From contig QPMI01000508.1 of the NCBI GenBank assembly GCA_004431415.1, positions 109,429 through 173,428 of the forward strand: a stretch of 64,000 nt of DNA, in the 5' to 3' direction. The notes under the pieces are model-generated. The model saw only the letters and a list, made by a program, of their open reading frames with translations. It was not told the DNA's origin and ran no database searches. Position numbers and translations under genes: made by a program. Shown one piece after another: positions 35,737-64,000 of this stretch. Source of the DNA: Cyanophora paradoxa CCMP329. Its lineage: Eukaryota > Plantae > Glaucophyta. Within the stretch, counting starts at the first letter, position 1; the number at the start of each line of letters is the position of its first letter.

Positions 35737-35831
35737 ACACATATTGAAAAACGAATTTAAATCCCTCGTTCATCTCGATCGCTTCGCGATCTCGATTCAC
35801 TCTGGATTTAAATTCGTTTTTCAATATGTGT
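35737..35831. other. Left terminal 95-nt hairpin/palindrome
   Basis: 28-bp perfect stem (35737-35764 with 35804-35831), symmetric mismatch region, inner stem gatcgc-ttc-gcgatc centred at 35784. Confidence 0.9.
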
Positions 35832-36158
35832 TAATTTAATACTAAAATACATATTTATCGATTAATTTCTTTAACTTTTTATGCAAACTTTGTATAAATT
35901 AATGCAAACTTCGTATTAAAAATGATAAACGCGTTTAATTTAATGCATATTCACGATTGATTCAATCGATATTATATCGATAAATTATGTTCTTTGTCGA
36001 TTACATATATAACTTCGATTGATTAACATTAAACTACTTAAAGAACGATATAATCGCGATTAATTCGCATAAATTCGCATAAATTCGCATAAACTCGATA
36101 TATCTCATCGGTATTGAAGTAGACCACCGCCCATTTTGTATCGGAAAACGCAAAAACT

Positions 36159-36410
36159 GTCACAGAGTTGCATTTTGTCCAATTAAACAATCGATGGAAT
36201 TGCGGATTTACATTTTTGCACCGAAAAAGTGTCACAGAGTTGCATTATGTCCAATTAAACAATCGATCAGATTGCGGGATTTTCTATTGGAATATATCGG
36301 AACTGCATCACGTCCAATTAAACAATCGATGGAATTGCGGATTTACATTTTTGCACCGAAAAAGTGTCACAGAGTTGCATCATGTCCAATTAAACAATCG
36401 ATGGAATTGC
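36159..36410 (+). repeat. Four tandem 63-72-bp repeats inside the TIR (mirrored at 63327-63578)
   Basis: Core gtccaattaaacaatcgat at about 36177, 36249, 36312 and 36384. Confidence 0.85.
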
Positions 36411-36523
36411 ATATGTTCTATAAAACAGAATAATTGAGATCAAGTGTGACAGGTAGTATTCAAATGATATTCAGTAAGAGATAGTTTTGTTTTTGAGAAA
36501 GTCAGTAAGAGGGGTGGAATGTC

Positions 36524-36960
36524 TGTGACGCCTGTGACGGCTGTGACGCCTGTTTTCAGAAGTCTGTCATTTTTGAAAATTTTAAAAAGTTTGAAAGTAG
36601 GTGTCACAGGCGTCACAGGCGTCACACTCAATTAACTTAGGTGTCACAGCGAAATTGCAGACCATTTCCAGTAAGGCAACTTCGCATTATCAAAAAGGTT
36701 GATTAATGGATATTGTTTTGTAGGTGTCAGAGGTGTCACAAGACGGATTTCAGTAAGACAAGAATATATTTTTGAATATCTCAGTAAGAGAGATAGATTC
36801 CATTTTTAATTGGGTGTGACGCCTGTGACGGCTGTGACGGCTGTTTTAAGAAGTCTGTCATTTTTGAAAATTTTAGAAAGTTTGAAAGTAGGCGTCACAG
36901 GCGTCACAGGCGTCACAGTCAATTAAAGAGGCGTCACAGTCAATTAAATAGGTGTCACAC
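36524..36960. promoter_or_regulatory. Two iteron/AT-core cassettes (putative origins) in the left TIR; mirrored at 62777-63213
   Basis: (TGTGACGSC)3, AT-rich spacer, (GGYGTCACA)3 at 36524-36627 and 36814-36918, with extra half-sites. Confidence 0.55.
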
Positions 36961-37161
36961 CCGATTATCTGACCATTTTCAGTAAGACCATCTGAAATTC
37001 TGAATTTCTCAGTGTCAACTAACTCGGAAATCGCAATACTCTATGTTTCTCCGATTTCTCCAACCCTGAAAACACACCTGTTATTCTGTCATCTATCTCA
37101 TGAGATACTCTCGTTTCGCCAAAAATTGACAAACGATTTCCCATCATGCTGTAAAGGAAAC

Positions 37162-37428
37162 ATGCCGATTAACCAGCAATATCACAATTTCCATGGGACT
37201 TACATCTTGATTGTGAAAAGAATACAAGATCATTATGAGATCTTTCAAGAGATGGGATTGCGAATTACAAGGAGATCAACCCTTTGTAGATTCTTGAAAA
37301 AGAATGGTGCTAAATGGGATAAGACAATTCGCCGATGGTATACAGAAGATCGAAAGAGTCCCATTCTTAATATTTTCGAGACAGATGGGGAGTTCTTCTA
37401 TCAGGATCGGTTTAATCATTACCAATAG
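37162..37428 (+). CDS. Small viral protein with a DUF5710-like motif
   Basis: FLKKNGAKWDKTIRRWY matches the K..GA.WD...K.WY motif; ATG 37162 lies just outside the TIR. Confidence 0.5.
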   Translation: MPINQQYHNFHGTYILIVKRIQDHYEIFQEMGLRITRRSTLCRFLKKNGAKWDKTIRRWYTEDRKSPILNIFETDGEFFYQDRFNHYQ

Positions 37429-38344
37429 CCAACAACTCCAACTGGAATGAGTTGTCAATTCCATTCATATCTACAAGATCACCATAATAATCGCGAAACT
37501 CAACTGTTAACTCTCTAATGACCAAATTGCGATCGGTTATTTTTATGTATTCACTGTGCTCTCCACTGTGGTAAACATACTGTCCAATATCTTTACTTAA
37601 TTGCAATCTGAGAATCGCCCCTTGATTCTGTGGTTGAGATTGGGGGACAATATTGTGGTTTGTAGCAAATGGGGAGAGTTCTTTAATGTGCATGTATAAA
37701 TACTGTTCTGCATTCATATCTGTCATCTTGGAAGCTTCTAACTTGTAGTTTAAGCGAGATGCCTCGAATTCATATCCTGTGAATGTGATTCCCCATTGGG
37801 GATGGTTTGGGGTGATTGGTATTCCTGCGAAATAAAGGAAATTCTCGGGGGCATATAAAGACCTTGCAGACTCTGGGAAATCGTAAATCTGTTCAGTGGA
37901 AGCCACCCACTCCACTGAACTCACACCAAGAAGTTTACCCAATCTCTGTGTAGATGCAACCATATCGAATTGAACATTACTGTAAAACTCCAATTTGTAG
38001 GAGGTAGGGTTGTAGTAGACCTTGAATGCATATGTGAGATTGTTGCTCCCAGTAAATGTGAAATTCAGACCATAATTATATGGAGTGGTGACCCCGAAAT
38101 GACCTTGATTTATGTAACCACTTGGGAGAAGGAAGACCTGCTTGGTTTCAGAGATGCCTTGGTAGTAGAATCTGACAAGAAGGTGGTCTGTTCCAATGGA
38201 GTTATAGATGCTGTTGGGGATCTCTGCATACAAAACTCGACATTCTCTTGGTTTGGTCACTGGGGTTGTGAGTGAAACCTTGTAGGAGTTTTCTATTTGT
38301 CCATTTGATCGGTCTCTGCTATCTATATTGACCAGCCGAATCAT
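37412..38344 (-). CDS. Minor capsid (penton) protein 1
   Basis: N-terminal VNIDSRDR, EIPNSIYN; C-terminal YLYMHIKEL...LTVEFRDYYGDLVDMNGIDNSFQLE, the single jelly-roll penton pattern of PLVs/NCLDVs. Confidence 0.8.
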   Translation of the reverse strand: MIRLVNIDSRDRSNGQIENSYKVSLTTPVTKPRECRVLYAEIPNSIYNSIGTDHLLVRFYYQGISETKQVFLLPSGYINQGHFGVTTPYNYGLNFTFTGSNNLTYAFKVYYNPTSYKLEFYSNVQFDMVASTQRLGKLLGVSSVEWVASTEQIYDFPESARSLYAPENFLYFAGIPITPNHPQWGITFTGYEFEASRLNYKLEASKMTDMNAEQYLYMHIKELSPFATNHNIVPQSQPQNQGAILRLQLSKDIGQYVYHSGEHSEYIKITDRNLVIRELTVEFRDYYGDLVDMNGIDNSFQLELLAIGND

Positions 38345-38372: not shown

Positions 38373-39383
38373 ATGCCTGTGGATTACATTGAAGTGAGCT
38401 CTTTCAATACAATTTCGGGAGATGGACCTACTTCGAGTTTTATTGCTCGCCTCCCAAGCACCTATGAATTTGTGAGAGCAGTAAGACTGGTTTCAGCAGA
38501 ATTCTATAACAGCATTCCCATGGTGAGTGGTGAAACCAAACCAGGAGATGTGACAATTGATAATGCAATCTACCTTTATTGGTCTGAATATCTTTCTGGT
38601 GCAGGAAGCACTGGTATTCCAACTGATCGACCTGCTGCTGATTATGAATCATGGAAACACATTGTGATAAGTCGCAGCACACCCATTCAAAACCACCAAC
38701 AACTGGTGAATGTAATTAACTCCAAACTTGCATTGAGAGAGCCACCAGTAGCAATTCGCTGTAAATGGGATGATACACTGAAACGAGTTATATTCCATTC
38801 AACCATACCGTTTTACCTGGCTTTCTCAACCGCAATTAACCCAACCCAGGCACAAATTCAGAGATTTTTGAGTTCTGCTCGACTGCTTGGTCTTGATCCT
38901 GGGAGATATGGTAACACCCCAATCCAATCACAAGTTTATAATACTCTGACTGATGGTATCTTCACTGGGTCGATGGTGCATGGTATTATATCTTCATTTG
39001 AACCTGAAAAGACCAGGGATAGTGTTCTGTTTGTGAGAGTAAAGGAGTTGGGTGATCTGGTTCAATGTGGTGATGGTCTCCTCACTGGATACTTCCACAA
39101 AATCGTTGTTCCAGATAAAGATTATGGTGAGCATGTCGTTTATAATTCGACAGAAGCCCATCCGATTTATAAATACTATAACAAGAATCTGGGACTTTCC
39201 ACATTTTCGGTTGATATTGTGAATGCAGTCAATGAACCAATTGATTTCGAGGGTCAACCTGTCCACCTCACCTTCGAAATTCGATATGGTGATGAACCTG
39301 CTGGTGATCCTGTGTACGAATACTTCAAGAGGAGAATGGCGGAAACACATCCATCTTATCCTGTTATTGCGAATTTTGCGTAA
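38373..39383 (+). CDS. Minor capsid (penton) protein 2
   Basis: IEVSS...F...LP....V.AVRLVSAEFYNS; LFVRVKEL...FHKI...LSTFSVDIVNAVNEPIDFEGQPVHLTFEI. Confidence 0.7.
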   Translation: MPVDYIEVSSFNTISGDGPTSSFIARLPSTYEFVRAVRLVSAEFYNSIPMVSGETKPGDVTIDNAIYLYWSEYLSGAGSTGIPTDRPAADYESWKHIVISRSTPIQNHQQLVNVINSKLALREPPVAIRCKWDDTLKRVIFHSTIPFYLAFSTAINPTQAQIQRFLSSARLLGLDPGRYGNTPIQSQVYNTLTDGIFTGSMVHGIISSFEPEKTRDSVLFVRVKELGDLVQCGDGLLTGYFHKIVVPDKDYGEHVVYNSTEAHPIYKYYNKNLGLSTFSVDIVNAVNEPIDFEGQPVHLTFEIRYGDEPAGDPVYEYFKRRMAETHPSYPVIANFA

Positions 39384-39437: not shown

Positions 39438-40808
39438 ATGGATATTACTTCGACCCTCCAACGTCTTTCTCTGAAAGAAGCTCTAACAACCCCGGAAGAA
39501 GCCAAGGCGTTCTTCCTGGACAACTCTCTCATGCTTGGTCTTGAATCCAAGTCGAAGCCAGTTCTTGTTGTTGTGAACCCAAGCAACACTTTCGAGAATA
39601 ATGCTGGAAATCGCATTTCGTTCAAGCTCCCTCGCTACAATTTCTGTGGAAAACTCGAACTTGCGTTTGACCTTCCAGCTGTCACTTTTGCTGGTGATAC
39701 CGACCTTGTTCGCAATGGATACGTTCGCCCAGTTGGTGCTCTTGTCTCTCGACTTGAAATCACCTATGGATCTTACACTTTCCATGTGCCTTCTGATTTC
39801 CTTGCTCATTTCCCTCTTATCTATTACAGTGAGGATCAACTCGCCAAGAAGAAGCGTTCAATGGGTATGGTTCATGGTATCCCTGCCCATGGAACCAACC
39901 GACTTGGTGGTTCATTCTTTGTTGAAATCCCCGTCCCATGGCTAAACCACTACCTACCTCTTGGTGCTCTCTCAGGAGAAATGGTGGTAACTGTCTGGTT
40001 CAAGGATGCTGGAAAGGGTTATGTTGAGACTTCTTATGGTGGTCGTGCTCTTCCTGTTGTTGGTGGAACAGCTGCTGATAAGACAGAGGATGATGGACTT
40101 GGTGCTACTGCTAATGCTACTCTTGCCCATGTTGGTCAACAGATCACCACTTTCACCATCTCTGGAACAACCCCCGAAATTAAAGTCACTTCTCCTCGTC
40201 TTTACATGCATGCTATTAATGTTTCTGATGAACTGTTTGCTACTGTCATTGAGAAGGTGAAGACCACTGGTATGGCTATTCCTGCTCTGGATATTGGTTT
40301 CGTAGACAGTGTCAATTTTGCTGCAAAAGGCAATGCTCAGCCAAATCGTATTAACCTGTCACAGATCTCTGGTCTTGTCTATGGTCTTCTTGTTTCAGTT
40401 CGTGATGCCGCAGGTATTGATGGTTTCAATGGTTCCCACAGTGTTCTGAAAACGTATGCTAACTCAAAAGACATTACTTTCACTGTTGAAATTAATGGTC
40501 AACGTCTCTATGCTACTGAGCCCATCCCTCTCCTCAAAGGTGCCGAATTAATTGCGGATGCCTTCAAGTGCTCAAATATGGACAAGGTTGCAGACAAATA
40601 TGTCCTCAGTGGTCTACCATTCTGTGTTGATGGAGAGAAAGCGATTCGCAACATTGCCCAGTCTGGCTATGTTGATCTCACGAACTCCTCCTCCTCTTTC
40701 CTCACTCTATACATGCCTTCTGACCAGACAATCACAGTTAATGTTCGTGCTCTCATGCACAGTTTCATTATTGTTGACAAAGATGGTCTTCGTCGCATTA
40801 ATCTGTAA
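39438..40808 (+). CDS. Major capsid protein (double jelly-roll)
   Basis: 456 aa, beta-rich; ISFKLPR....GKLELAFDLP, LVSRLEITYG, FVEIPVPW...LPLGALSGEMVVTVWF; lies between penton and packaging ATPase. Confidence 0.8.
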   Translation: MDITSTLQRLSLKEALTTPEEAKAFFLDNSLMLGLESKSKPVLVVVNPSNTFENNAGNRISFKLPRYNFCGKLELAFDLPAVTFAGDTDLVRNGYVRPVGALVSRLEITYGSYTFHVPSDFLAHFPLIYYSEDQLAKKKRSMGMVHGIPAHGTNRLGGSFFVEIPVPWLNHYLPLGALSGEMVVTVWFKDAGKGYVETSYGGRALPVVGGTAADKTEDDGLGATANATLAHVGQQITTFTISGTTPEIKVTSPRLYMHAINVSDELFATVIEKVKTTGMAIPALDIGFVDSVNFAAKGNAQPNRINLSQISGLVYGLLVSVRDAAGIDGFNGSHSVLKTYANSKDITFTVEINGQRLYATEPIPLLKGAELIADAFKCSNMDKVADKYVLSGLPFCVDGEKAIRNIAQSGYVDLTNSSSSFLTLYMPSDQTITVNVRALMHSFIIVDKDGLRRINL

Positions 40809-40870: not shown

Positions 40871-41653
40871 ATGAACGATTTAGAAGAGTTTAATGCAGGC
40901 GAAATGATAACCCCACCATTTCGTGCTCTTTTCATAGGAAAGTCTGCAACAGGCAAGTCAGAATGTGTGAAATATTGGTTGAAACAGCTGCATGATGCGA
41001 AAAAGATTGATACTGTTCTTGTTGTGAGTGGGACGTCCTTCAATCATTTCTGGGATGCAGTTGCAACATTGCAACTCGGGAAATGGGATGCTGCTTACAT
41101 TTCCAAATTACTGGATGAAAGGCAGGAGAAAATCGAAAAAGGGGAACCTGTGAATCAAATGTGTATTGTCCTTGATGATTTAATAGATAATGAGTTAATA
41201 GACCTAACTCGTGATAAAATAATTGGCTCTGTGTATTCGCGCGGCCGACACTCGGCAGTATCCTGTATCTGCATAACTCAGAAATTGCGTAAGGTTTCTT
41301 CAACAATTCGAGTAAATTCGGATTATGCTGTGTTCCTGAGTGCTGCAAATCGCAAAGAACTCGAAGCCATTGAAGAGGAATATAATATCATGCGAAACAA
41401 GGACGATTTCTATAAGATGTTTGAGGAGTATGTGCACTCTTACCAATATATTGTGTGGTCTTCTGCAAATTATTCGGTGAACTATTATGTTGATAAAGCG
41501 GATCTGGTCAAAGATTTCGCATTTCCTCGGTTCCACAGGAAGCCCAAAAAGAAAGAGGACGAACTACCACCTCCACAGAAAGAGGAAGCCCCCAAAGAGG
41601 TCAAGAGTGGTGTTCATTCGAATAAACTGATGCGATATAAGAGAGGTTTGTAA
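40871..41653 (+). CDS. A32-like (FtsK/HerA) DNA packaging ATPase
   Basis: Walker A GKSATGKS, Walker B IVLDD, RGRH..VSCICITQ, IRVNSDY. Confidence 0.92.
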   Translation: MNDLEEFNAGEMITPPFRALFIGKSATGKSECVKYWLKQLHDAKKIDTVLVVSGTSFNHFWDAVATLQLGKWDAAYISKLLDERQEKIEKGEPVNQMCIVLDDLIDNELIDLTRDKIIGSVYSRGRHSAVSCICITQKLRKVSSTIRVNSDYAVFLSAANRKELEAIEEEYNIMRNKDDFYKMFEEYVHSYQYIVWSSANYSVNYYVDKADLVKDFAFPRFHRKPKKKEDELPPPQKEEAPKEVKSGVHSNKLMRYKRGL

Positions 41654-41681: not shown

Positions 41682-42416
41682 ATGCCTTCCAAACGCAAAG
41701 TTGGTGTTCCTGCCGGTGCTATGTCATATTCTGCATCCTCTGGAACCGGTTCTATTAACATAGAGCCCCTGAAATTCAATGGTGTCAATGAAGTGAAAGC
41801 ATCACAGCAACAGGAAGATCCCCTCAATGCTGCTTATGAAGAATCTCCCGATGATAAAGCGCCCCAGGCATCCACCAGTGATCAATTGAATATTTCGCCC
41901 GAAGCCACAAAGATGAAGGCAGTTGGTGAAGGTGCTCGTCGAATTATTGGTGCTGCTGATGATAAAGGACTTGGTCTGCAAGATCTCTCACTTGCCCGCA
42001 AAGGTGAAGGTGTCTCCAAAGAATCCGACAAGGTTATTCAATCGATGGCTGGTGAGGTCACCTACAAGGTCGCACCTACACAGAATATCCACCGAATTCC
42101 CAAAGCCCAATGGGACGAAATGACTGCGAAACTTAAAGATCTGGAAGCGAAATCGAGTGCACTTGAACAGTATGTCTCTGAGAAGAAAGAGAGAGCGAAA
42201 TTAAAGGAGATGCTGCGAAAGGAGGTGTATAGAATGGGAATCACTGGTCTCCCAGATAAGCAGTTCATTGGTAAGAAAGAAACTCAAATCGATGAGCAGG
42301 CAGTTGATGAGATGAAGACCAAAACCCAGAAGGGCACCATTGAACCTGGTGCTACCAAAGCAGAGGTTGACAAAGGTGTTGCCCCAACAGTATATAAACG
42401 ACGAGTATGGCTATAA
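41682..42416 (+). CDS. Hypothetical viral protein (hydrophilic, coiled coil)
   Basis: 244-aa ATG ORF in the dense viral gene array. Confidence 0.7.
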   Translation: MPSKRKVGVPAGAMSYSASSGTGSINIEPLKFNGVNEVKASQQQEDPLNAAYEESPDDKAPQASTSDQLNISPEATKMKAVGEGARRIIGAADDKGLGLQDLSLARKGEGVSKESDKVIQSMAGEVTYKVAPTQNIHRIPKAQWDEMTAKLKDLEAKSSALEQYVSEKKERAKLKEMLRKEVYRMGITGLPDKQFIGKKETQIDEQAVDEMKTKTQKGTIEPGATKAEVDKGVAPTVYKRRVWL

Positions 42417-42878: not shown

Positions 42879-43106
42879 ATGGAAACTGAATCTGTGGTCG
42901 AATTCGAACTTGCAATGAGCGAAATGGATCCCAATGAGAGGAAAAGGTTGTATGACCGCTTGTATTTCCAGAAACGTTATCAAGATGAGGAATTTCGTGA
43001 ATTATATCGTAAAAAGGCACTGGAACGATATTATCGCAGGAAAGCTGCTGAGATGGATCCCAATAATCCAGTAAAACGCCCAGTAGGTCGTCCCAGGAAA
43101 TACTGA
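42879..43106 (+). CDS. Small basic DNA-binding protein with a C-terminal AT-hook
   Basis: KRPVGRPRK AT-hook after a helical Y/R/K-rich region. Confidence 0.7.
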   Translation: METESVVEFELAMSEMDPNERKRLYDRLYFQKRYQDEEFRELYRKKALERYYRRKAAEMDPNNPVKRPVGRPRKY

Positions 43107-45663: not shown

Positions 45664-45731
45664 ACAAAACAGAATCGATTCTAATACTGATTGAATTTCT
45701 TATTTTTTAAAAACCTTACTGTAAATGGTTT

Positions 45732-45866
45732 GTGTGACAGCTGTGACACCTTTTTAATTGAGTGTGACGCCTGTGACGCCTGTGACGCCTATTTTCAAAC
45801 TTTTTAAAATTTCAAAAATCTACAAACCTCTGAAAACAGGTGTCACAGGCGTCACAGGCGTCACAC
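45732..45866. promoter_or_regulatory. Internal iteron/AT-core cassette (putative replication origin) just downstream of the primase-helicase
   Basis: (tgtgacgcc)3, tattttcaaactttttaaaatttcaaaaa..., (ggygtcaca)3; same design as the TIR cassettes. Confidence 0.6.
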
Positions 45867-46017
45867 CCAATTAACCACAGACTCCCCCCTGTGGGTCGAT
45901 GACTGTTTCGATTCTTAATCGGACAATATAAAAACGTATCGAAAATCGTTGTGTTGTGACAAAAATTGACTGGCGATTTAAGGGATCGTTGCGTATTTCA
46001 CTTGACTAAGACAGAAA

Positions 46018-51663: not shown

Positions 51664-51689
51664 CAATCGGATAATTCTATGAATCGCAA

Positions 51690-52391: not shown

Positions 52392-53932
52392 TCATACACT
52401 TCGAATAAATGCACCTGTGACATCCACTCTCATAGTTGGGGTGTTGATGTATACAAGTGGATAAATTCGAATATACCTTGTCCTCAGAGGGTAGCCAATA
52501 TAGAAAACGTCTCTAATAGAGGTGGGATACCCAGAACTGTATGAGACATCACCACTGTTGTGGGCATTATTAATAGTTTCACACATAAACACTCTGTTGA
52601 CACCTTCATACTTGATAAATGACCAGGAAACACCATCTTGTGATGTTGCAACATTGAAGGTCTTAATAAAAGCGTTTGTTACACCAGAACCATATGCAAT
52701 TATAGATGCAACCTCAAATATGTATGGGAAGGTTACTTGGAGATACTCAGTGGGAACACTCCATATCCCATCAGGAGCAGATGCATTTGCTTCCCAACCT
52801 GTCAAGGAAGGTCTTGCTTTAAATGCCTCCCTTCCAATTTTTGATGATGAAGCAGTGAATGCACCATCTGATAGAAGATACCAGTTAGCATCAATGGGAG
52901 GTATGTTATTCAGAGTGGATGATATATAGAACCTTGCAGGGTTCTTGATTTCGTAATTTGCAACCAGTAAATCACAGAGTCTATCAATCATCACAGTGTT
53001 TGCTGCTATATATATTTCGGTTGCATCTATCATATCTGGTATTTTAGAGGTATCATCCAAAGAGTTTACTATGGTCTTTGGAAGTGGAACAGAGAGTCTA
53101 TAATATCTTGCATATCCTTGATCATCATTGTATGGGAGAAACTCTTGCATCTTTTCCAGAGCAGACAGTTCACTTGCAGCCATCAACATATTGATTAATG
53201 GACTTCCAGAGGTCGAAGCAATCCAAGAGAGGATGCCCCAGCTGTTCACATCTTCATAAGAGTAACCCACATTTGGAGCATCTGTTTCATTGACTTCACC
53301 ACAGGATATACTTATCACTATAATATCATCATCATCATCATAGATCTTCTTAGCATGACTGTAACCACAGACACTGGGATTGTTGTTACCTGAGATTGCA
53401 CCATCAATTAGAGACATCCCATCATAGTTCACAGGTGAGAAATATGTTGGAGCAGCAGAGGTGGATCTTGCAGCAATCTTGCTGGGGATGGATTTGTAGG
53501 AGTTATCATTGGTGATAAAAATGGGCTTCATACTCACAGTGTCAAAACTTGTGATCACTACATCTTTGAGAGAGTCTTGAATGAGAGACTCACCAGTAAC
53601 AGTGAGAATGGCTGTCTCCAATGGGGTCACATCATACTTGGTGTTGAAAAGTGCATTATCAATAATATTTCTGGGATTTGCAAAGATTAAGGGGAGTTGA
53701 TTGAGATAAGTGGAATGCAAATCGGTTGCAGTAAGTTTAGGTTCGTTTGGAAATTCGGGATTTTTCACATTGAGACCAATCGCAATTATCCCACCAGTGG
53801 ATGTTCCACTCACCAGATCAACAAGGTCAATTACTCTTTTTCCTGTTCGAGTTTCGATTTCTTTTAACAATCTCGTAATAATTATACCACGAGCTCCCCA
53901 CCTGATAATGAGAGAATTACACGAAGGGGCAT
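52392..53932 (-). CDS. Patatin-like phospholipase fused to a C-terminal F5/8 type C (discoidin) domain; one-base frameshift near the 5' end
   Basis: Restoring one G at about 53897 gives MPLRVILSLSGGGARG; GTSTG nucleophile; SAAPTYF; IDGA; discoidin FTASS...EYLQVTF...SQDGVSW...RTRYIRIYP...MRVDVTG. Confidence 0.88.
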
Positions 53933-53981
53933 CTTTACTTAACTCAAATTTAATAAATCTCTATAAGTAGAGTAAACAGGG

Positions 53982-56900
53982 ATGAGTTTCAATTACCCAG
54001 CAAACCTTCAAACCATTCCCTCATCAGGAAGAGGGAAGGCAGATAACAAACATGTGAATTTCGATAACTTGACAGCCAGAGGGTCAATCTCAATTGATCA
54101 CAGTGCAGATGAACCCTCAAAGACTCACCCAAGAGAGCATGCACTTTCAATAAACGAAATGGATCCCGAAAAGGAGGATGTGAGTGTTGCTTTCAGCATG
54201 GGGAATGTGAAATCGAATCAAGTAGCCCAGATTAAAGCAACCAGGAGCAGACCAAGAAAACTGAAAACCAGTGGAACCCATCCAGATATTCCAACTCGAT
54301 TCGATAGTGGTAGGTTAATATTCAATGTTCAAAATGAGAAGGGTGGGCATCAGAGTGGTTTGAGAATCTATAATGAAGGATCAAATGCAATTGCACAAAT
54401 TCCCGAAATATTACAGATAGCCCCCCATGGAGAAACCAACAAAATCGAGTTCACTAACAATGTTTATCCACGAGATATTGTGGCGAATTCGGCTTCTAAT
54501 GCGCAATTCGGTTTCCAACTACCAAGTGATACAGCAAAGAATAAGGCGTCTATCACTGTCAACAGTAGCCCCACTCAACCAGTAACAGTTCATTTACACC
54601 CAGACCTTGTCGAAATGGATAGGCACCTTTTACCTTTGGTGACAAACACCAAAGATCTTGGTATTAGAACCAGACAATGGCGAAATATCCATGGAAGCAA
54701 TGTCTATGCAAATGGAGAGAAACTTGTAAGTGAGAAGACCATAAGAGAGATCTTTGAGTATTATGGACCTGTCCCAGTTCCCTTCCCACTACCATGGGAT
54801 CCACCAGATTTAACACCCAAAAAGCAACCAGGAAGAGAATACACAGCAGATGAGACAGTTCCTTTTGGGCAACACATTGTTAGTTGGGAGCAAGTTCGCA
54901 ATAAACCTATAATTGAACCCAGAAAGCAAATTGATGAGCAATATTTACCTCCTGAAATTGATATTTTGGAGCTTGACGAATACCAATTCGTTCCAGATGA
55001 GGAGGAATACCTACCTGATGGTTTCGACCCACAAGAGTATGAATATGATCAATATGATCCCAATGAGGAAGAGTATTTACCAGATGGTTTAGATCCACAA
55101 GAGTATGAATATGAGCAGAATTATGAACCCCATGAGGAATATTTAGCAGATGGTCATGATCCACCAGCTGTTGACTATGAGCAACCTTATGAACCCCATG
55201 AAGAATTATTACCAGATGGATTTCGACCTGAGATTTGGGAATTCTTCCCAGATTGGGAGCAGATCAACAACAAACCAGCCAGATTTCCACCAGAGGATCA
55301 CAACCATGACTGGGATGAGATCTTAGGCAAACCTCAAAAGTATCCACCAGAGGATCACAGGCATGATTGGGGTGATCTGGATGGGATACCAGATAAGTTT
55401 GCAGCAAGCAACCATGAACACACCTGGGATGAGATCAATGACCAACCAGAATTCGCAAAAGTAGAGCCTCTTGCTACTCTGGGAGTTTCTCTTTACCAGA
55501 CTTGCAATGTCCCTGAAAGGATCTTTTTGAATCACCACTATGTTCATGTGGAAGGGACACTTGCAAATTCAGCTATGATAGGACCATTGCATATTAGAAC
55601 ATTACCAGGCTCTTATAATCCACCACCAGAACCAGGAGCAACCATACCAAATATCTTTGTGTCAAGCTACATGGAGGTTGACATACCCACAGATACTTTT
55701 AGAGTTCCAACAGACCCAGCAACCTACCAAAATTACAATGCAGCTATACAGGTTCATGTTGCAGATGTGAGCAGTCTGGATGGATCAAGACCAATGATAG
55801 TTTTCAGTCGAGATAAATACTCCTATATTCCCATAGTGGGAACTGCAAATGATAACTATGGGAGGGCAGAGCTTGCATGGATCAAAACAGATTATGGTGG
55901 GGTTCTCGAAGCCAATCAAAGAATGGCTGCAAAAAACATTCACAACGAAAATATATCGAGAGTGGTAACAGAAGATTATTTAGAAGATCAAGGATATATT
56001 GACGAAGGAGAACTAACGAATATTCTTTCTTTATTCGTGATTAAAAATGATACAAACCTTACAGTCACAAGTAACATTTACACCAGTAACATTTCAGCAA
56101 GTAACATTTGGACAAGTAACCTATGGGCAAGTAACCTATGGGCAGATGATATTTACACAAGTAATCTTACAGTGTATCGAAATATAACAATTGGAACACA
56201 AAATACTATACAAATACTTTATAGACCTTACTATGCTGTTACTACTGTCATTGATCCAGCCCCAATTATTCCAAATTGTATATTTGCATGGAAAGCATCA
56301 GGTCAACATGGTCAGTTGATATATTATCAAGGTCAGATATATAACAGAGTTACTACACAGATACCATATCTAACAAATTATTCGAATTGGGAAACTGTTT
56401 ATTATTATTTGAATGCAACCCTAAACAATCAAATTTCGATTGGGAAAGAATTAAACATGGCTTATAGGAATAGTGTTTCAATAGATTGGTCATTAGGTCT
56501 TACATTATTCTTTATAGGTAGGATCAATACTACAAATCCTTCTTATATGTTGAGTATAAGGGATAGTTCTTATCAAAATTGGATTGGATATGGTTGTAAA
56601 AATCAAAAGTTTGGTGTTTCACTACAAATTCAAAATGATATAGAAAATGCAACTCCTCCATTATTCGATGCATCATATATTTATAATTCGTGGAATTATT
56701 GGGATTTCACTGTTTCCTCAGAGCAAATTGTCGTAGGAATGGGTGGTATTGATATTGGAACATCATCGGGTGATTTTCTTCCACCTTCTAATTTTGCATC
56801 ATTTGGTTCTTCTGTTGCTAATGGAGATCTTGCCGAAATTATCGTTTTCAATCGTGCGTTATCTATTGAAGAAAAGAACGCGGTTAGATATTATATACAA

Positions 56901-59771
56901 TTATTGTATGGATTTCCAAATACGCAGCCCATATTGAATAATGAAGATCTTAAAATTAATTCGAGCAATATATTTATTGAAAATCTCACAGTTACCAAAA
57001 ATGCAACTCTACCACATCATCCCACTTCGAATGTTGTTTTAGATTGGTTAGCAAAACAAACACACACAAAAGCAGATATTACAGATTTCGCCCACACTCA
57101 CACAAATGATCAAATAACAGATTTCGCCCATACTCACACAAAATCGCAAATCACAGATTTCGCCCATACTCATTTATGGGAGCATATCACAAATCCTCCG
57201 TTAACCTTCCCACCTGATTCACACACTCATGATTATTCAGAGATTACAAATAGCAACCACAGGCACCCATGGAGCGAAATAGACGAACAGCCAGTTTTTG
57301 CCCAATTGAATGCAATCGGAAACGTTTTTAATGGAGTCACACTTTACCAATCGAGTAATACACCTGAAAGGCTATTTTTGAATGATCATTATGTTAGTCT
57401 CAATGGTTCATTTACAGGTCAAGACGGCACACCGATGGTGGGAACTCTTGCAGTAAGATTACCCAGGGATCCAATCGTAAATGGAGTGTATAGTGGCGAT
57501 TTTAATGTAGGAATTAATGATACTTTCCCCAGTATCTATGTCACGAATTATCACCCGGGTGAAACAGGACAAGTAGCGGATTTTTCAGCAGCGATACAAG
57601 TAAATGTAACAGATCAAAGCGCATATGATGGAGCAAGACCTAAAATAGTTTTCACAAGGGAGAAAGTTGTAAACTACCTTCCTGTTGCGGGACAACCCAC
57701 AGATGATCACGGTAAATGTGAGATTGCATGGATAAAAACGACATCAGGTGGCGCCTTAGAAGTCAATCAGAGAATGGCGGCGAAAAACTTACACAATACC
57801 ACCCTTTCCGGTGTTGTTACAGATGATTACCTTACCAATAAAGGGTATCTTACCTCAGCCGATTTAAGTAGTTACACAACAGATGCAGAATTAACGGCGG
57901 CACTTGCTAATTATCTACCTCTAACAGGTGGAACTATTACAGGAACTGTGAATGCTACCACTCTACAAATTGGTGAAACCACAATACCAAAAGGTTACGA
58001 TTTCGACCAATTAGATGTGGTTTCGACAGACAGGAGCGCAAATAATTGGAACTTAGGATGGACACCAAGAACCGGACAAACAGGATGTTATACAACACCA
58101 CAAAATGATGAAGATTGTAGCGCTTGTTTTATGCGTTGGACAGTTCCAGAAGGTATGAAATCGTTTTACATCCAGCACATGCCGTGGTATAATTGTAGAT
58201 ACTTTGATATTTACGGGCAAACTGTGAATGGATATCAACATTTCTTAAAACGAGTTAATGATTAAGGAATCCAATCAGTTAATAATGATGGAACCAATAA
58301 TACTATTTTGTTCACTTCTATCAATTGCGAATTCTACAAATATATTTATGTCCAAGGTCGAAAAGGTCGCATTCATCTCACAGGTGTTTTTGGGTGGAGC
58401 AGACAGAGAGCAACAGATAATGAATTGGGCATGATCTCTTGGGATAATGTATATAGCAAACCATCATTTTACTCAGCCGCAGACCTCCCAGGAACAGCAA
58501 CATGGCCAACAAATACATGGTTAAAATCAGTAGATGCAGTCGAGCGAATTTGGTTTGGTAATGGCGATTGCACATATATACGAGGGAGACCGAATGGTGA
58601 AGGTGTGTCAATTGAATTTAGAGACTCAGCAGATGGAGCAATTTTAAAGTCTTATAACAATGGTAACTTTTGGGTGAAAAACACTATTACAGCACCCACT
58701 ATTAATGCTACTACCAAACTCCAAATAAACGGTAATGATGTCCCAAAGTTTCACACAGCAGATAAAACAGTAGGAGGTATTGCATTTAATAGATGTTCTG
58801 AGGGTTGGACATGGGCATGGAGTTCAGCATGGGATCCATATTATAATTATGGTTCATATGTCTATAATAATCAAACGGATGATCAAACATCTACCGCTTG
58901 GATTGACTTCGATATACCCGATGGATACCACACAGGAACAGCATTTTTAACCTATTTACCTTGGACTAACTCACGAATTTTTGAAATTTGGGGAGTGAAT
59001 CGACAAGGGAATGAAGTTTTTATTACATCAGTAAATAGTTATCAACCATACAGCACATCTCCTGATGGTAACCACAGTGGTATAAATAATGTTCCAATAC
59101 ATCTTGGTAATCGATTCCTCACAATTCGGATTAGACCAAAGATTGGAAGAGTTCATATTATGGGTATTAGTTACATGAAAATTTGGGTTGGAAATAGTTA
59201 TGGCGGTCACACCGGCTATATTCATTGGAATAACGTTTATAGCAAACCCAATATCTTAACAGGAGCATTGGATCTTTGGTTTAACTCTAATGATGGATAT
59301 AATCGTATCTATTTTACGAATAATAGCACCACGTATTTTAAAGGAAGAGGAACTTATCCAATAAGATTTCGAAATGAATTAGATTCTGATATTTGTTATA
59401 TCGATCATGACGGGCGCTTGTGGATTAACAATTATCTTTATCAAGGAAGTGACATAAGATACAAAACAGATATTAAAAAGATAACCGGCGCTCTTTCAGC
59501 AATTGAGAAATTAGAAGGAGTGAGTTATAAACGAATTGGAAATGAAAAACACGGAACAAAATTAGGTTTAATTGCGCAAGATGTAGAAAAGATAATACCA
59601 GAGGTTATTAACGTGAAACAAGATGATGGCTATTTAGGTATCGAATACACGGGTTTAATTCCAGTTCTCATAGAAGCCGTTAAAGAATTATCCCAGAAAT
59701 GCAAACATTTAACGCAAACTTGTGAAAATCTCCAAAGTCAAATAGACCAAATTAAAAATGTCACAGTATAA
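53982..59771 (+). CDS. Giant fibre/receptor-binding protein with C-terminal peptidase S74 intramolecular chaperone; one in-frame TAA at 58263-58265
   Basis: Acidic repeats, H-x-H repeats, a duplicated internal domain and a LamG-like block; ORF 58308 is in frame with ORF 53982; ends SDIRYKTDI...GLIAQDVE.IIPEV...IEY..LIPVLIEAVKEL. Confidence 0.8.
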
Positions 59772-59774
59772 TAA

Positions 59775-60083: not shown

Positions 60084-60122
60084 ATGGTGTTTATTTTTCT
60101 TTCCTTCTTAGTAAAAGAAGCA

Positions 60123-60908
60123 ATGGGTGAATATAATCGAGTTCAACTTCCAATATATTCCCTTGGATCCCCTGCTATGCACTTTCGCCAGCATGAAGTT
60201 AATGATGAGGTTCGTGGTTTAGAATCAACAGAGAGACCCAATTCCAATGGTAACTCCTTTGATAAGAATTCGATTATTCGAGTTAAAGAACTGAGAGCAG
60301 ACAAGAATTCTGGTGTGGTTAAAACAACTCGACTCCTTGTCTCAAATGCGAATTTCTTCCAACCTACTAATGGAGGTCCTGATGCTTACAGTGTTGATCT
60401 GAAAGCCCTTGATTTCGATAAGAATTCTGCTGCTGTTACTGTGAGATCAGGAGGAGCATTTATTGGGGGTGGCTGTCGAATTTCAGGTCAACTTTCATCC
60501 TCAATTTCGTATAATGATGTCCCAGATACTCTTGAACAAAATGCTGAGAACCCACAACGAATTCGTTTCTACACACCTGTTGCACAGCAACCTTTTCTTC
60601 ACTTCTATGTTACTTCCTCTGTGACTCTTGAAAACTCGGAATTGGTCTCCATTACAGGAACTGATCGAGTAAGAAGAAATATTCCTCTTCCCACAGCAAT
60701 GCTTTCGATGTGTAGAGCAAACAACAATCAAACAGGTCATAATTACCTATTCTTTGTTCAAGCATCAAATCATTTCGGTCGAGGATATTGTGTATATAAC
60801 AATTTGACATTTACCTATGATCTGTTTGTCACTGAGGTAGGAGTTTATAATACTATGATAATTGGACTGAGAACAGATATAGCAGCTGTTTCGGCACTTC
60901 GAGGGTAA
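60123..60908 (+). CDS. Putative virion fibre-like protein, paralog A
   Basis: Shares its N-terminal domain with ORF 61000 (V.GL.STE...EL..DKN.G.VKTT.LLV.NANF...GGA.IG.G.RI.G); alternative ATG at 60084. Confidence 0.6.
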   Translation: MGEYNRVQLPIYSLGSPAMHFRQHEVNDEVRGLESTERPNSNGNSFDKNSIIRVKELRADKNSGVVKTTRLLVSNANFFQPTNGGPDAYSVDLKALDFDKNSAAVTVRSGGAFIGGGCRISGQLSSSISYNDVPDTLEQNAENPQRIRFYTPVAQQPFLHFYVTSSVTLENSELVSITGTDRVRRNIPLPTAMLSMCRANNNQTGHNYLFFVQASNHFGRGYCVYNNLTFTYDLFVTEVGVYNTMIIGLRTDIAAVSALRG

Positions 60909-60999
60909 ACGTTGCAGATATCTTCACAACAGGGTTTTACCAGGAACCAGATGTGATTGATGACCCAACCCCATAAATTATATATCACTTTAATGTAAA

Positions 61000-61848
61000 A
61001 TGGCTGCCCCAATACCAGAACGAATTATTACACCCCAACTATCATTAGCAGCACCTGCGAATCACGTTTTGCAGCATGCTACCTTTGATGATGTAGAAGG
61101 TCTCCAATCCACAGAAGTGCAACCTACCATGAATACATTTGGTTCCACCCACAAACTGAGATTGCAGGAACTCAGGTGTGATAAAAATAATGGTATAGTT
61201 AAGACAACGAAACTCCTTGTCACAAATGCAAACTTTTCTGCCCACTATGGAGACCCAGACAGTTATGGTGATCCTCTTTCTACTTATTCTTTTGAATCTC
61301 GGTCGGGAGCTATTAACTGCAAAACGGGGGGAGCATATATTGGTGATGGTCTTCGGATTGGTGGAGCTGTTGGTGCGCCTCTTTTCGTAAATGATCAACC
61401 CAATCCCATTGATCCCAACACCAGAATTCGCACCTATGTCCCCAGTATGAATGCACCATATATTATCAAGATCTTCCCAATTGTTGTGAATGAGCAGACA
61501 TCAGTAGTTGATTCTCTTGTTGAGATTGGTGACCACTACAAGGTGGTTGTCGATATCCCACCAGATGTTTATGCTGTCTGTCAAGTAGAGGGTGGAACCC
61601 CAAATATTGCAGTTGTGATCACTCCATATGACAATTTCGGAATCGCTTATCATGGTGTGAATTTCGGTCTTGAAGATTACCAGTTCTTGGTGAGAGCCAC
61701 CAGATTTGGTATCTACAAATGCATTCTCTATGCTGAGAGAACCGATGCTATTGCAAAACAGAATACATATGCAGAATATTACGGCACAAATCGCTACTTC
61801 CCCATTTTCGGCAGGATACTGCTCCATAGAAATCTCAGGTATATATAG
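61000..61848 (+). CDS. Putative virion fibre-like protein, paralog B
   Basis: N-terminal domain paralogous to ORF 60123; C-terminal half diverged. Confidence 0.6.
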   Translation: MAAPIPERIITPQLSLAAPANHVLQHATFDDVEGLQSTEVQPTMNTFGSTHKLRLQELRCDKNNGIVKTTKLLVTNANFSAHYGDPDSYGDPLSTYSFESRSGAINCKTGGAYIGDGLRIGGAVGAPLFVNDQPNPIDPNTRIRTYVPSMNAPYIIKIFPIVVNEQTSVVDSLVEIGDHYKVVVDIPPDVYAVCQVEGGTPNIAVVITPYDNFGIAYHGVNFGLEDYQFLVRATRFGIYKCILYAERTDAIAKQNTYAEYYGTNRYFPIFGRILLHRNLRYI

Positions 61849-61856
61849 AGAGAGGG

Positions 61857-62129
61857 ATGGATGATAAAACAAAGAAATTCATAGAGTCTGCAATGATGGT
61901 TCATGGTGATGCTAAATTCGATTACAGTGAGACAGTCTATAAGAAAGCACAAGAGAAGGTCTCTGTTAGATGCCTCAAATGCAACAAGATCCTCCAAACC
62001 TACCCATTTAATCATGTAAGGGGAAGTGGATGCAGAGAGTGCAACAAGAAATCCTCTCATGCTTACAGAAAAAAGACTACATCAGGAATTGTGATAGATG
62101 ATAAACCAGTAGTATTATATTTTGATTAG
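61857..62129 (+). CDS. Stand-alone DUF723-like Zn-binding repeat protein
   Basis: FIE.A..VHG..FDYS.T.Y....KV...C..C....Q.P.NH..G.GC..C. Confidence 0.7.
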   Translation: MDDKTKKFIESAMMVHGDAKFDYSETVYKKAQEKVSVRCLKCNKILQTYPFNHVRGSGCRECNKKSSHAYRKKTTSGIVIDDKPVVLYFD

Positions 62130-62275
62130 ATCTTTGAGAGAGAAATGAGGATCTTTCCCCATTTTCCCTTTGTGATTATGCATGTATCAAAGCAGTTTGG
62201 ACAGGTCTTGTGGTAGTGCAGCAGAATGATATCCACCAACTCATATGGTAGCACTCTTGCTAAGATGGTTCGCAT
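62126..62275 (-). CDS. Tiny ORF with an F-box-like motif and CxxC
   Basis: MRTILARVLPYELVDIILLHYHKTCPNC. Confidence 0.35.
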   Translation of the reverse strand: MRTILARVLPYELVDIILLHYHKTCPNCFDTCIITKGKWGKILISLSKI

Positions 62276-62316
62276 TCTACCAATCGCGTTTTTTAATTTT
62301 TCTAAATTATTCATAA

Positions 62317-62718
62317 ATGAATACTCATCGAGGCTTCCATGTGATGCTGGATTACAAATTCAGAACCCAATTAGCAGTAGGAATGGAGGACTTGGAGACA
62401 ACAACCAGGTGGTTAATGCAGTTCTTGCAAACTATTATTCAAGAGCAAGGTATTCGAGTAGTTCACAAGCATTGCGAGATTTTCGATGGTGGTATTTCTC
62501 CTCCTGGTTTTGCAATGGTTCTTCTGCTGGATGAGAGCCATTGCACTGCTCATTGTTACTCAAATGAAGGTATGTTGGCGATTGATATATTCAGTTGTGG
62601 ATTAGAAGCAGAGAGGAAAACCACGAGAGTATCTCATGAGATAGATGACAGAATAACAGGTGTGTTTTCAGGGTTGGAGAAATCGGAGAAACATAGAGTA
62701 TTGCGATTTCCGAGTTAG
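62317..62718 (+). CDS. speD: S-adenosylmethionine decarboxylase proenzyme (short prokaryotic-type, pyruvoyl-dependent)
   Basis: G.HVMLD, PPGFAMVLLLDESHCTAHCY (E/S autocleavage site), AIDIFSCG. Confidence 0.85.
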   Translation: MNTHRGFHVMLDYKFRTQLAVGMEDLETTTRWLMQFLQTIIQEQGIRVVHKHCEIFDGGISPPGFAMVLLLDESHCTAHCYSNEGMLAIDIFSCGLEAERKTTRVSHEIDDRITGVFSGLEKSEKHRVLRFPS

Positions 62719-64000
62719 TTGACACTGAGAAATTCAGAATTTCAGATGGTCTTACTGAAAATGGTCAGATAATCGGGTGTGACACCTATTTAATTGACTG
62801 TGACGCCTCTTTAATTGACTGTGACGCCTGTGACGCCTGTGACGCCTACTTTCAAACTTTCTAAAATTTTCAAAAATGACAGACTTCTTAAAACAGCCGT
62901 CACAGCCGTCACAGGCGTCACACCCAATTAAAAATGGAATCTATCTCTCTTACTGAGATATTCAAAAATATATTCTTGTCTTACTGAAATCCGTCTTGTG
63001 ACACCTCTGACACCTACAAAACAATATCCATTAATCAACCTTTTTGATAATGCGAAGTTGCCTTACTGGAAATGGTCTGCAATTTCGCTGTGACACCTAA
63101 GTTAATTGAGTGTGACGCCTGTGACGCCTGTGACACCTACTTTCAAACTTTTTAAAATTTTCAAAAATGACAGACTTCTGAAAACAGGCGTCACAGCCGT
63201 CACAGGCGTCACAGACATTCCACCCCTCTTACTGACTTTCTCAAAAACAAAACTATCTCTTACTGAATATCATTTGAATACTACCTGTCACACTTGATCT
63301 CAATTATTCTGTTTTATAGAACATATGCAATTCCATCGATTGTTTAATTGGACATGATGCAACTCTGTGACACTTTTTCGGTGCAAAAATGTAAATCCGC
63401 AATTCCATCGATTGTTTAATTGGACGTGATGCAGTTCCGATATATTCCAATAGAAAATCCCGCAATCTGATCGATTGTTTAATTGGACATAATGCAACTC
63501 TGTGACACTTTTTCGGTGCAAAAATGTAAATCCGCAATTCCATCGATTGTTTAATTGGACAAAATGCAACTCTGTGACAGTTTTTGCGTTTTCCGATACA
63601 AAATGGGCGGTGGTCTACTTCAATACCGATGAGATATATCGAGTTTATGCGAATTTATGCGAATTTATGCGAATTAATCGCGATTATATCGTTCTTTAAG
63701 TAGTTTAATGTTAATCAATCGAAGTTATATATGTAATCGACAAAGAACATAATTTATCGATATAATATCGATTGAATCAATCGTGAATATGCATTAAATT
63801 AAACGCGTTTATCATTTTTAATACGAAGTTTGCATTAATTTATACAAAGTTTGCATAAAAAGTTAAAGAAATTAATCGATAAATATGTATTTTAGTATTA
63901 AATTAACACATATTGAAAAACGAATTTAAATCCAGAGTGAATCGAGATCGCGAAGCGATCGAGATGAACGAGGGATTTAAATTCGTTTTTCAATATGTGT
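62623..64000 (-). repeat. Right terminal inverted repeat (1378 bp)
   Basis: Reverse complement of 35737-37114; overlaps the last 96 nt of speD. Confidence 0.95.
63906..64000 (+). other. Right terminal 95-nt hairpin with a GCGAAGC tip
   Basis: acacatattg...aaatcc pairs with ggattt...caatatgtgt; central gatcgc-gaa-gcgatc. Confidence 0.9.

What the first reader, a model, noticed from the sequence alone, without database searches (positions are those of the whole stretch)
35737..64000. Complete 28.3-kb endogenous virus with an unusual gene combination
Seen: MCP, two pentons, A32 ATPase, rve integrase, pPolB and also a primase-SF3 helicase, but no recognisable maturation cysteine protease. Cargo includes patatin-discoidin, an S74-chaperoned fibre, AdoMetDC, and AT-hook, DUF723-like and DUF5710-like proteins. 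The TIRs look identical and the integrase DDE triad is intact. Established: Polintons/Mavericks have pPolB, integrase and a protease; many PLVs lack the protease and use primase-helicases or tyrosine recombinases. Inference: a recently inserted, possibly reactivatable intermediate lineage that may be undescribed.
Basis: partly seen in the sequence, partly recalled or inferred. Interest (0 to 1): 0.82.

Follow-up and report, generated by a model that had tools for sequence, protein, structure and literature searches.

The report
Algal integrated virus with phage-like origins
A 28-kb virus genome is inserted, likely in some 25-40 copies, in the DNA of what is likely the alga Cyanophora paradoxa; its family is already catalogued, but it carries genes for two DNA-copying systems and five repeat arrays that likely act as phage-style replication origins.

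Summary
The element is real: 35737-64000, 40% GC in a 68% GC host, with identical 1378-bp TIRs. It carries a double-jelly-roll MCP, two penton-like genes, an A32 ATPase, a DDE-intact RVE integrase, pPolB and a PrimPol-SF3 helicase. It is not an undescribed lineage. Its closest capsid relative is a Cyanophora paradoxa MCP listed by Bellas 2023, and a 2025 table gives this gene pool, with no maturation protease, for 156 glaucophyte PLVs. Corrections: pPolB is frame-broken five times in the window (likely assembly errors) and lacks proofreading motifs, but keeps a vOTU cysteine protease. The ends read ACACA...TGTGT, not TG...CA. A 6-bp CACGTG target duplication is inferred. This is the SaPI origin layout, and the motif follows a helicase gene in 11 of 23 IMG/VR hits. 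Best model: a helicase loaded at these origins serves a protein-primed, proofreading-less polymerase. Verdict: a new variant of a known kind.

The parts
35731..35736 (.). Left copy of an inferred 6-bp target-site duplication, CACGTG (palindromic)
   Evidence: A second junction shares the 7 flank bases 35730-35736 in X1, X2 and X6. Chance is about 0.007 for 60 junctions. Only a 6-bp duplication of this palindrome explains it. The right copy lies outside the window (inferred).
35737..37114 (+). Left terminal inverted repeat, 1378 bp, starting ACACA
35737..35831 (.). Terminal hairpin: perfect 28-bp stem with an imperfect inner part
   Evidence: -32.9 kcal/mol, z -11.2, 0 of 200 shuffles. Other copies keep the stem with a different loop (loose ends at 35767 and 35802).
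36152..36410 (+). Direct repeats of about 52-107 bp inside the TIR
   Evidence: (I6, I7, I13-I16)
36513..36645 (.). Iteron array 1: TGTGACGCC x3, AT-rich core, inverted x3 (mirrored at about 63092-63224)
   Evidence: z -9.8; core 78% AT
36806..36960 (.). Iteron array 2 (mirrored at about 62777-62931)
   Evidence: z -11.9; core 78% AT
37162..37428 (+). 88-aa ORF, weak DUF5710 match
   Evidence: Pfam E 6e-4, below cut-off
37412..38344 (-). Penton-like protein 1 (310 aa)
   Evidence: 24% identical to penton-like 2; label from recalled motifs; no database hit
38373..39383 (+). Penton-like protein 2 (336 aa)
   Evidence: as penton-like 1
39438..40808 (+). [quoted passage not shown]
40871..41653 (+). 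A32-like packaging ATPase
   Evidence: Pox_A32 E 2e-10
41682..42416 (+). 244-aa charged protein without Cys (cannot be a cysteine protease); possible core protein
   Evidence: sequence; no family or PDB hit
42879..43106 (+). 75-aa basic protein ending in an AT-hook-like RPVGRPRK
   Evidence: sequence; motif recalled
43300..45663 (+). PrimPol (AEP)-Zn-D5_N-SF3 helicase, 787 aa, catalytic motifs present
   Evidence: 20 relatives at 23-36%
45733..45876 (.). Internal iteron array, 70 nt behind the helicase stop codon; candidate origin
   Evidence: (z -14.1); core 80% AT
46266..49542 (+). pPolB of group-1 Polinton type: TP-like domain, vOTU (Cys near 46967, His near 47270), degenerate exonuclease, intact palm. 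Five frame breaks in the window.
49708..51126 (+). RVE integrase, D138/D200/E236
51531..51933 (.). Non-coding tandem repeats (11 bp x12, 32 bp, 31 bp)
52392..53932 (-). Patatin phospholipase-discoidin fusion; frame break near the 5' end
53982..59771 (+). Fibre with phage-tail repeats and a C-terminal S74 chaperone, split by an in-frame stop at 58263-58265
60084..61848 (+). Two paralogous ORFs (274 and 282 aa, 33% identical), no known family
   Evidence: no usable hit
61857..62129 (+). 90-aa Zn-finger / phage endonuclease-associated ORF
   Evidence: phrog_681 E 7e-11
62317..62718 (+). S-adenosylmethionine decarboxylase; its last 96 nt lie in the TIR
62623..64000 (-). Right terminal inverted repeat with hairpin and two iteron arrays; ends TGTGT at the window's last base

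Best explanation
This is an integrated polinton-like virus, likely of the glaucophyte Cyanophora paradoxa, that likely copies itself with a hybrid machine: its primase-helicase is predicted to load on the opposed-iteron arrays and unwind DNA for a protein-primed polymerase that has lost its proofreading motifs. Steps: (1) the RVE integrase inserts the linear genome and leaves a 6-bp duplication (triad shown; duplication inferred). (2) After release (not shown; likely triggered by a giant virus or in the nucleus), the SF3 helicase would self-load at the arrays, two near each end and one behind its own gene, as SaPI Rep does (layout shown; binding inferred). (3) pPolB would be primed by its own terminal-protein domain at the ACAC ends, the vOTU cutting that domain off (residues shown; activity inferred from Krupovic 2024). 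PrimPol would add internal primers. (4) The A32 ATPase would package the DNA into an MCP/penton capsid with an S74-folded fibre and a patatin entry enzyme, without a maturation protease. The frame breaks in this copy are most likely assembly errors. Identity as a PLV is about 0.95 likely; the replication model about 0.55.
For: Host and family: P0001 is a C. paradoxa protein and appears as an MCP in PMC10120064 Table S2; a neighbouring row matches our first 38 residues at 35-36 places by eye. The only two MCP relatives among 1.84 billion proteins are P0001 and P0004. Insertion: one 1766-nt contig runs from the host flank 23 nt into the TIR in 4 of 4 runs laid. Long element contigs have 25-41 times the flank's depth in X1, X2 and X6 (rough). 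Helicase, pPolB and integrase contigs have similar depth in X2 (1980, 1812, 1620). pPolB read with X at five breaks is one 1093-aa frame, 318 of 1036 aligned residues identical to a firefly Polinton pPolB. It matches a canonical Polinton contig at E 9e-77. PolA/B/C motifs and the vOTU Cys/His are kept; ExoI and ExoII are lost, and 33 residues stand where the reference has 129 around ExoIII. A 96%-identical contig crosses that deletion without a gap (record 9), so it is shared by another copy. 17 of 50 fold rows are titled OTU, all on model residues 127-251 (best Z 5.1, rmsd 3.7, 93 aligned). Breaks: five of the 12 indel rows shown are one-base additions carried by most of the depth in all three DNA runs, four of them at pPolB breaks, and all five lie in G runs, which make up 18.5% of runs. 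Origins: the SaPI definition (6-12 iterons immediately downstream of rep, opposed around an AT-rich centre; PMC9371898) fits 45733-45876. The 18-mer occurs in 23 IMG/VR loci; in 11 of them (10 distinct proteins: VapE-like, DUF5906, AAA_25) a helicase gene ends at a cluster of 5-11 opposed hexamers. Loss of the exonuclease paired with gain of a helicase is the mavirus pattern.
Against: No binding, priming, expression or particle data. The OTU fold scores are under Z 8 on a model with pLDDT 53. Contigs drop rare variants, so the breaks may be real in this one copy. The fifth pPolB break, the patatin break and the fibre stop are not among the rows shown (22 indel rows and 593 substitution rows hidden), and the breaks cluster in pPolB more than uniform error predicts. 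The window differs from majority contigs by about 1.5% (17 letters in 1027 and in 1257), and no contig spans helicase to pPolB. The reversed-motif control also found a primase-helicase origin in 1 of 10 loci (1 of 4 independent groups), so the layout is general and TGTGAC is not a unique signature. The IMG/VR helicases beside the motif are not detectably related to ours. In Halocafeteria, terminal palindromes go preferentially with non-pPolB elements, which favours the first rival. The host is inferred from proteins; the runs are coded.
Confidence: 0.58

Rival explanations
1. Replacement in progress: the primase-helicase, its origins and the terminal hairpins do the replication (hairpin-primed, as proposed for Halocafeteria elements), and pPolB is decaying.
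For: A 28-bp perfect terminal stem is kept while the loop varies between copies. The exonuclease is destroyed. Five breaks cluster in pPolB. Palindromes are associated with non-pPolB elements, and double replication genes are read as transient.
Against: Majority contigs restore the frame at four of five breaks. Palm motifs, the vOTU dyad and a Ser at the TP linking position are kept. A pPolB without exonuclease is considered active in mavirus.
Confidence: 0.22
2. A recombinant between two co-resident PLV families: the internal array is the scar of another element's end, and the two replication genes are side by side by accident.
For: The internal array is 87-88% like the TIR arrays and lies between the two genes. 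Glaucophyte PLVs carry pPolB (49 of 156), D5 (40 of 156) or SF1 helicase (34 of 156) in varying sets. Module swaps are common.
Against: Both genes stand at similar depth, about 25-30 times the flank. The position directly behind a helicase gene recurs in 11 phage-like loci. No hairpin or other TIR sequence accompanies the internal array.
Confidence: 0.12
3. The assembled 28 kb is a collapsed mosaic of several copies; the identical TIRs and the exact gene order are partly assembly products.
For: High copy number with many variants, homopolymer errors, no spanning contig. The window ends exactly at the terminus. Bellas 2023 describes false consensus in such regions.
Against: The left junction is real in 4 of 4 runs, and a matching second junction exists. 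The ORFs are long and colinear. Contigs cover all 30 bins of 44001-64000 in X1, X2 and X6.
Confidence: 0.08

Closest known systems
Cyanophora paradoxa endogenous PLVs (Bellas et al. 2023, PMC10120064; Table S6 of PMC12220804)
   Same: Same MCP family (P0001, 60%, is listed there). Same gene pool: ATPase 139, rve 85, lipase 89, AdoMetDC 66, pPolB 49, D5_N 40, S74 37, protease 0, of 156. Discoidin-patatin fusions are mentioned for glaucophyte PLVs.
   Different: In the text and table rows I read, they are unnamed clusters and per-taxon counts. Co-occurrence of pPolB and PrimPol-SF3, the lost exonuclease, hairpins and iteron arrays are not described there.
Group-1 Maverick/Polinton (Polintoviricetes; L001 as example)
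   Same: pPolB (E 9e-77) and RVE integrase (E 8e-23) are clearly related; TIRs; 6-bp duplication (inferred).
   Different: No significant match of MCP, penton, ATPase or protease to L001. No maturation protease found, the exonuclease is lost, and there is an extra primase-helicase.
Mavirus-like virophages
   Same: pPolB with TP-vOTU-palm and an exonuclease remnant, a separate SF3 helicase gene, RVE integrase, lipase (lipase recalled).
   Different: The MCP is a 456-aa NCLDV/PLV-like capsid, there is no maturation protease, the helicase is fused to a PrimPol, and the pPolB is of group-1 Polinton type, so the loss is likely independent.
Halocafeteria seosinensis virophages and PLVs (bioRxiv 10.64898/2026.07.28.741278)
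   Same: Terminal palindromes next to the TSD; some virophages carry pPolB plus D5 primase-helicase.
   Different: There the palindromes go mostly with non-pPolB elements, the double set is reported in virophages, and no iteron origins are mentioned in the section read.
SaPI pri-rep-ori cassette (PMC9371898)
   Same: Opposed iterons around an AT-rich centre immediately downstream of a primase-SF3-like helicase gene.
   Different: Bacterial satellite, 5-6-bp iterons, one origin. Here the iterons are 9 bp and there are five arrays, four inside the TIRs of a linear eukaryotic virus.

Membership tests
Polinton-like viruses (broad sense) | Double-jelly-roll MCP | tested here: met
   Atlas Capsid_N/Capsid_NCLDV 0.98; relative P0001 with HHpred 98.5% to an iridovirus MCP in Bellas Table S2. 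My own fold failed (pLDDT 34).
Polinton-like viruses (broad sense) | Penton (minor capsid protein) | tested here: inconclusive
   Two paralogues with recalled penton motifs; only a non-significant 145-column alignment to the L001 penton
Polinton-like viruses (broad sense) | A32-like packaging ATPase | tested here: met
   Pox_A32 E 2e-10
Polinton-like viruses (broad sense) | 14-40 kb with TIRs, integrated | tested here: met
   28,264 bp, 1378-bp TIRs, host junction in 4 of 4 runs
A named PLV class or clade (Aquintoviricetes, NCLDV-like groups) | Placement in an MCP or ATPase tree | not testable with these tools
   Only two MCP relatives were retrievable and no reference set is held
Group-1 Maverick/Polinton (Polintoviricetes) | pPolB with TP-vOTU-EXO-palm | tested here: inconclusive
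   Homologous, with vOTU and palm kept, but the exonuclease motifs are lost
Group-1 Maverick/Polinton (Polintoviricetes) | RVE integrase with DDE | tested here: met
Group-1 Maverick/Polinton (Polintoviricetes) | Adenain/Ulp1 maturation protease | tested here: not met
   No Pfam or NCBIfam hit, no motif in six frames, L001 protease best E 0.06 on the AdoMetDC gene. A very divergent protease in the 274/282-aa pair cannot be fully excluded.
Group-1 Maverick/Polinton (Polintoviricetes) | Maverick-type MCP | tested here: inconclusive
   No similarity to the L001 MCP (probability 0.2%), but one reference and a three-sequence profile
Mavirus-like virophages | Virophage-type MCP | tested here: not met
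   Features match NCLDV-type capsid clusters; MCP-VIR is 0 of 156 for glaucophyte elements
Mavirus-like virophages | pPolB with exonuclease remnant plus separate SF3 helicase | tested here: met
   definition
Mavirus-like virophages | Dependence on a giant virus | not testable with these tools
   needs culture work
SaPI-type iteron origin | 6-12 iterons immediately downstream of the helicase gene, opposed around an AT-rich centre | tested here: met
   8 hexamers 73-200 nt behind the last codon, 5 forward and 3 reverse, around an 80% AT core; definition
SaPI-type iteron origin | Specific binding and melting by the cognate helicase (winged-helix C-terminus) | not testable with these tools
   No assay; the winged-helix domain was not tested

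The most novel reading that the evidence does not exclude
A glaucophyte-specific PLV lineage runs two working replication systems on one linear genome. A phage-satellite primase-helicase-origin cassette has had its origin copied into both TIRs, beside a protein-primed polymerase that lost proofreading independently of mavirus, and hairpin ends. It would give the first sequence-defined iteron origins for a polinton-like virus and a snapshot of how replication modules are swapped together with their cis sites.
Probability: 0.35. Interest if true: 0.75.

Novelty: new variant of a known kind. Interest (0 to 1): 0.5.

Why it matters
How most PLVs replicate is stated to be unknown (abstract), and why their replication genes swap so freely is open. 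A helicase gene that travels with its own origin explains how a swap can work at once, and it gives short, testable sites. The host is likely a cultured model alga with about 25-40 near-identical copies, so origin binding, end structure and induction can be tested directly. As a discovery of a new virus family it adds little: the family is catalogued.

Tried and rejected
MCP, ATPase and single-sequence pPolB scans of IMG/VR and metagenomes found no relative. The MCP profile found nothing in the PDB. The MCP fold was unusable and was not searched. Protease hunt: motif scan, Pfam/PHROG/NCBIfam, PDB, profile against the L001 protease and Atlas (no usable hit); none positive. TG...CA ends rejected: one other junction continues TGTGT with T, and junctions that share one flank base lack the T. 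Expression: no RNA holder listed; X15, guessed RNA, has low-depth contigs on pPolB, AdoMetDC and the TIR, which is no evidence either way. The LF/PAD fold for the TP domain was not among the 50 rows (inconclusive). The bacterial promoter scan does not apply. L002, a D5 helicase locus related to ours, has no TGTGAC cluster behind the gene. Of the 23 motif loci, 12 are not counted as origins: 6 collagen genes, 3 tandem runs, 3 unresolved. Flip/flop hairpin isomers cannot be told from contigs. Earlier findings of this scan: none relevant. No tree was built: too few relatives.

Full report
Observation. The stretch 35737-64000 is a 28,264-bp element of 40% GC in host DNA of 68% GC. It is bounded by identical 1378-bp inverted repeats. 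The integrase triad D138/D200/E236 aligns with the foamy-virus integrase. The primase (DxD, H, D), zinc finger and Walker motifs of the 787-aa primase-helicase are present and shared with its relatives.

Host and prior description. The MCP has one relative among 7998 scored candidates of the 5.8-billion set (P0001, 60%) and two among 1.84 billion representatives. P0001 is a Cyanophora paradoxa protein and is listed as an MCP in Table S2 of Bellas et al. 2023, beside a row that looks closer still by eye. Table S4 counts 366 MCPs in two unnamed clusters for that genome. PMC12220804 Table S6 gives, for 156 glaucophyte PLVs: ATPase 139, rve 85, lipases 89, AdoMetDC 66, pPolB 49, D5_N 40, S74 37 and zero in all nine protease columns (columns matched by counting). 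Its text mentions discoidin-patatin fusions in these PLVs. So the lineage and gene pool are catalogued. The host is inferred, not shown.

Insertion and copy number. In 4 of 4 runs laid, one 1766-nt contig runs from the flank 23 nt into the TIR at low depth (28-104), where it meets the repeat. Long element contigs stand at 25-41 times that depth in X1, X2 and X6. This is a rough figure: the tool's depth is not a copy number and GC bias may inflate it. Other junctions fix the end at ACACA...TGTGT. One junction shares seven flank bases with ours (chance about 0.007), which is what the right end of this copy would show if the palindrome CACGTG were duplicated. A 6-bp duplication is typical of RVE integrases. 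Identical TIRs fit a young insertion, but TIR homogenisation or polishing would give the same picture.

The polymerase. In the window, pPolB lies in pieces. With X at five breaks it is one 1093-aa frame, 31% identical to a firefly Polinton pPolB and matched at E 9e-77 by a canonical protease-bearing Polinton from IMG/VR (L001). Short-read contigs have one more base at four of the breaks, and at 61809, each in a G run and at most of the depth. G runs are 18.5% of runs, and the patatin break is also beside a G run on its strand. Assembly error is therefore likely, as Bellas 2023 found for such elements. But contigs drop single-copy variants, 22 of 34 indel rows were hidden, and the clustering in pPolB is unexplained. 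The palm motifs are intact. ExoI and ExoII have lost their acidic residues and about 96 residues around ExoIII are missing; another copy shares that deletion (record 9). The N-terminal part keeps the vOTU Cys and His. Its model (pLDDT 53) matches adintovirus and MELD polymerases and OTU domains in 17 of 50 rows at modest Z. 'No protease' thus holds only for the capsid maturation protease.

Each TIR starts with a 95-nt hairpin whose 28-bp stem is perfect (z -11); other copies keep the stem with another loop. Each TIR also holds two arrays of three 9-bp repeats, an AT-rich core and three inverted repeats, and a fifth array lies 70 nt behind the helicase gene. This is the layout given for SaPI origins (PMC9371898). 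An exact scan for the 18-mer found 23 IMG/VR loci. In 11, a helicase gene (9 VapE-like, of which 2 identical; 1 DUF5906; 1 AAA_25) ends at a cluster of 5-11 opposed hexamers; the other 12 are collagen genes, tandem runs or unresolved. The reversed pattern found 10 loci in 4 independent groups; one is itself an opposed-iteron array behind a Toprim-DUF927 gene. The layout is thus a general phage signature, and the motif is enriched but not unique. Those helicases are not detectably related to ours, and a D5 relative (L002) lacks the cluster.

Mechanism. I commit to a hybrid model: integrase-mediated insertion; helicase loading on the arrays; terminal-protein priming by a proofreading-less pPolB; packaging by A32 into a protease-free capsid. 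Shown: genes, motifs, repeats and the left junction. Inferred: binding, priming, cleavage, excision and particles. The pairing of exonuclease loss with a helicase parallels mavirus. The main rival is hairpin-primed replication with a decaying pPolB, as proposed for Halocafeteria elements.

Comparison and novelty. It works like a mavirus-style replicon in a PLV capsid, with Polinton-type pPolB and integrase. It is not a group-1 Maverick (no maturation protease found; structural genes do not match L001) and not a virophage (capsid type). pPolB plus RVE in protist PLVs, pPolB plus D5 helicase in virophages and terminal palindromes are in print. I found no paper on iteron origins in these viruses: in a search for iteron, polinton, virophage and helicase, 132 papers held three terms and none of the 20 listed, ranked by number of terms, held 'iteron'. 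Searches for Cyanophora or glaucophyte, hairpins and AdoMetDC (none) found no dedicated description of this family. Verdict: new variant of a known kind, interest 0.5.

Papers seen. PMC10120064: parts 1-2 of 7 and supplement rows by search (spreadsheet cut when stored; genome maps only as text). PMC12220804: passages, section 11, part 1 of section 13, table rows. bioRxiv 10.1101/2024.03.18.585575: parts 1-4 of 5. bioRxiv 10.64898/2026.07.28.741278: passages and section 7. bioRxiv 10.64898/2026.06.19.733378: passages and section 9, no mention of Cyanophora in the main text. PMC9371898, PMC4642659, PMC7805220, PMC12721341, PMC11296320, PMC12451622: passages. Preprint supplements, Zenodo files and the Bellas genome maps were not seen and may show this gene order or classify these clusters. 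Recalled, from no call: penton and AT-hook motifs, the mavirus lipase, slide-back priming at dinucleotide ends, flip/flop hairpins, and the DIRS label below.

Noticed in passing
L004, L007-L009, L015-L018, L021, L022, L024 (IMG/VR): Clusters of opposed TGTGAC/GTCACA repeats start at or near the stop codon of VapE-like, DUF5906 or AAA_25 helicase genes in 11 phage-like loci. This is a recurring helicase-origin cassette shared across unrelated helicase families.
   Followed up: partly
L027:1560-1660: Opposed 9-bp repeats around an AT-rich core about 200 nt behind a Toprim-DUF927 primase-helicase gene; found by the control pattern.
   Followed up: partly
window 64000: The window ends exactly at the element's last base. 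It is not known whether the source contig ends there too, which could point to reads from free linear genomes.
   Followed up: no
window 17946-23063 (+): LINE-like retrotransposon (endonuclease, RT region, zf-RVT) with frame breaks.
   Followed up: partly
window 26288-30635 (-): Retroelement with a gag-like ORF and an RT (RVT_1 E 2e-10), GA-rich repeats between them; DIRS-like by recall.
   Followed up: partly
window 14601-15518 (+) and 30738-31367: Host F-box gene and, by eye, a related fragment 16 kb away.
   Followed up: partly
window 25113-25763 and 33700-34190: By translation these look like two copies of a short host repeat with a C/G homopolymer tract.
   Followed up: no
window 51531-51933: Non-coding block of 11-bp x12 and 31-32-bp repeats between the integrase and patatin genes; length variants in other copies (joints).
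   Followed up: no
window 54673-56006, 57341-58007, 60009-62009: Parts of the fibre and the 274/282-aa pair have several-fold higher summed depth than the core genes, so they are probably shared with other PLV families in the host.
   Followed up: no
L001:1-12321: Canonical group-1 Polinton (pPolB with intact exonuclease, ATPase, integrase, penton, MCP, protease) filed in IMG/VR; used as a reference.
   Followed up: yes
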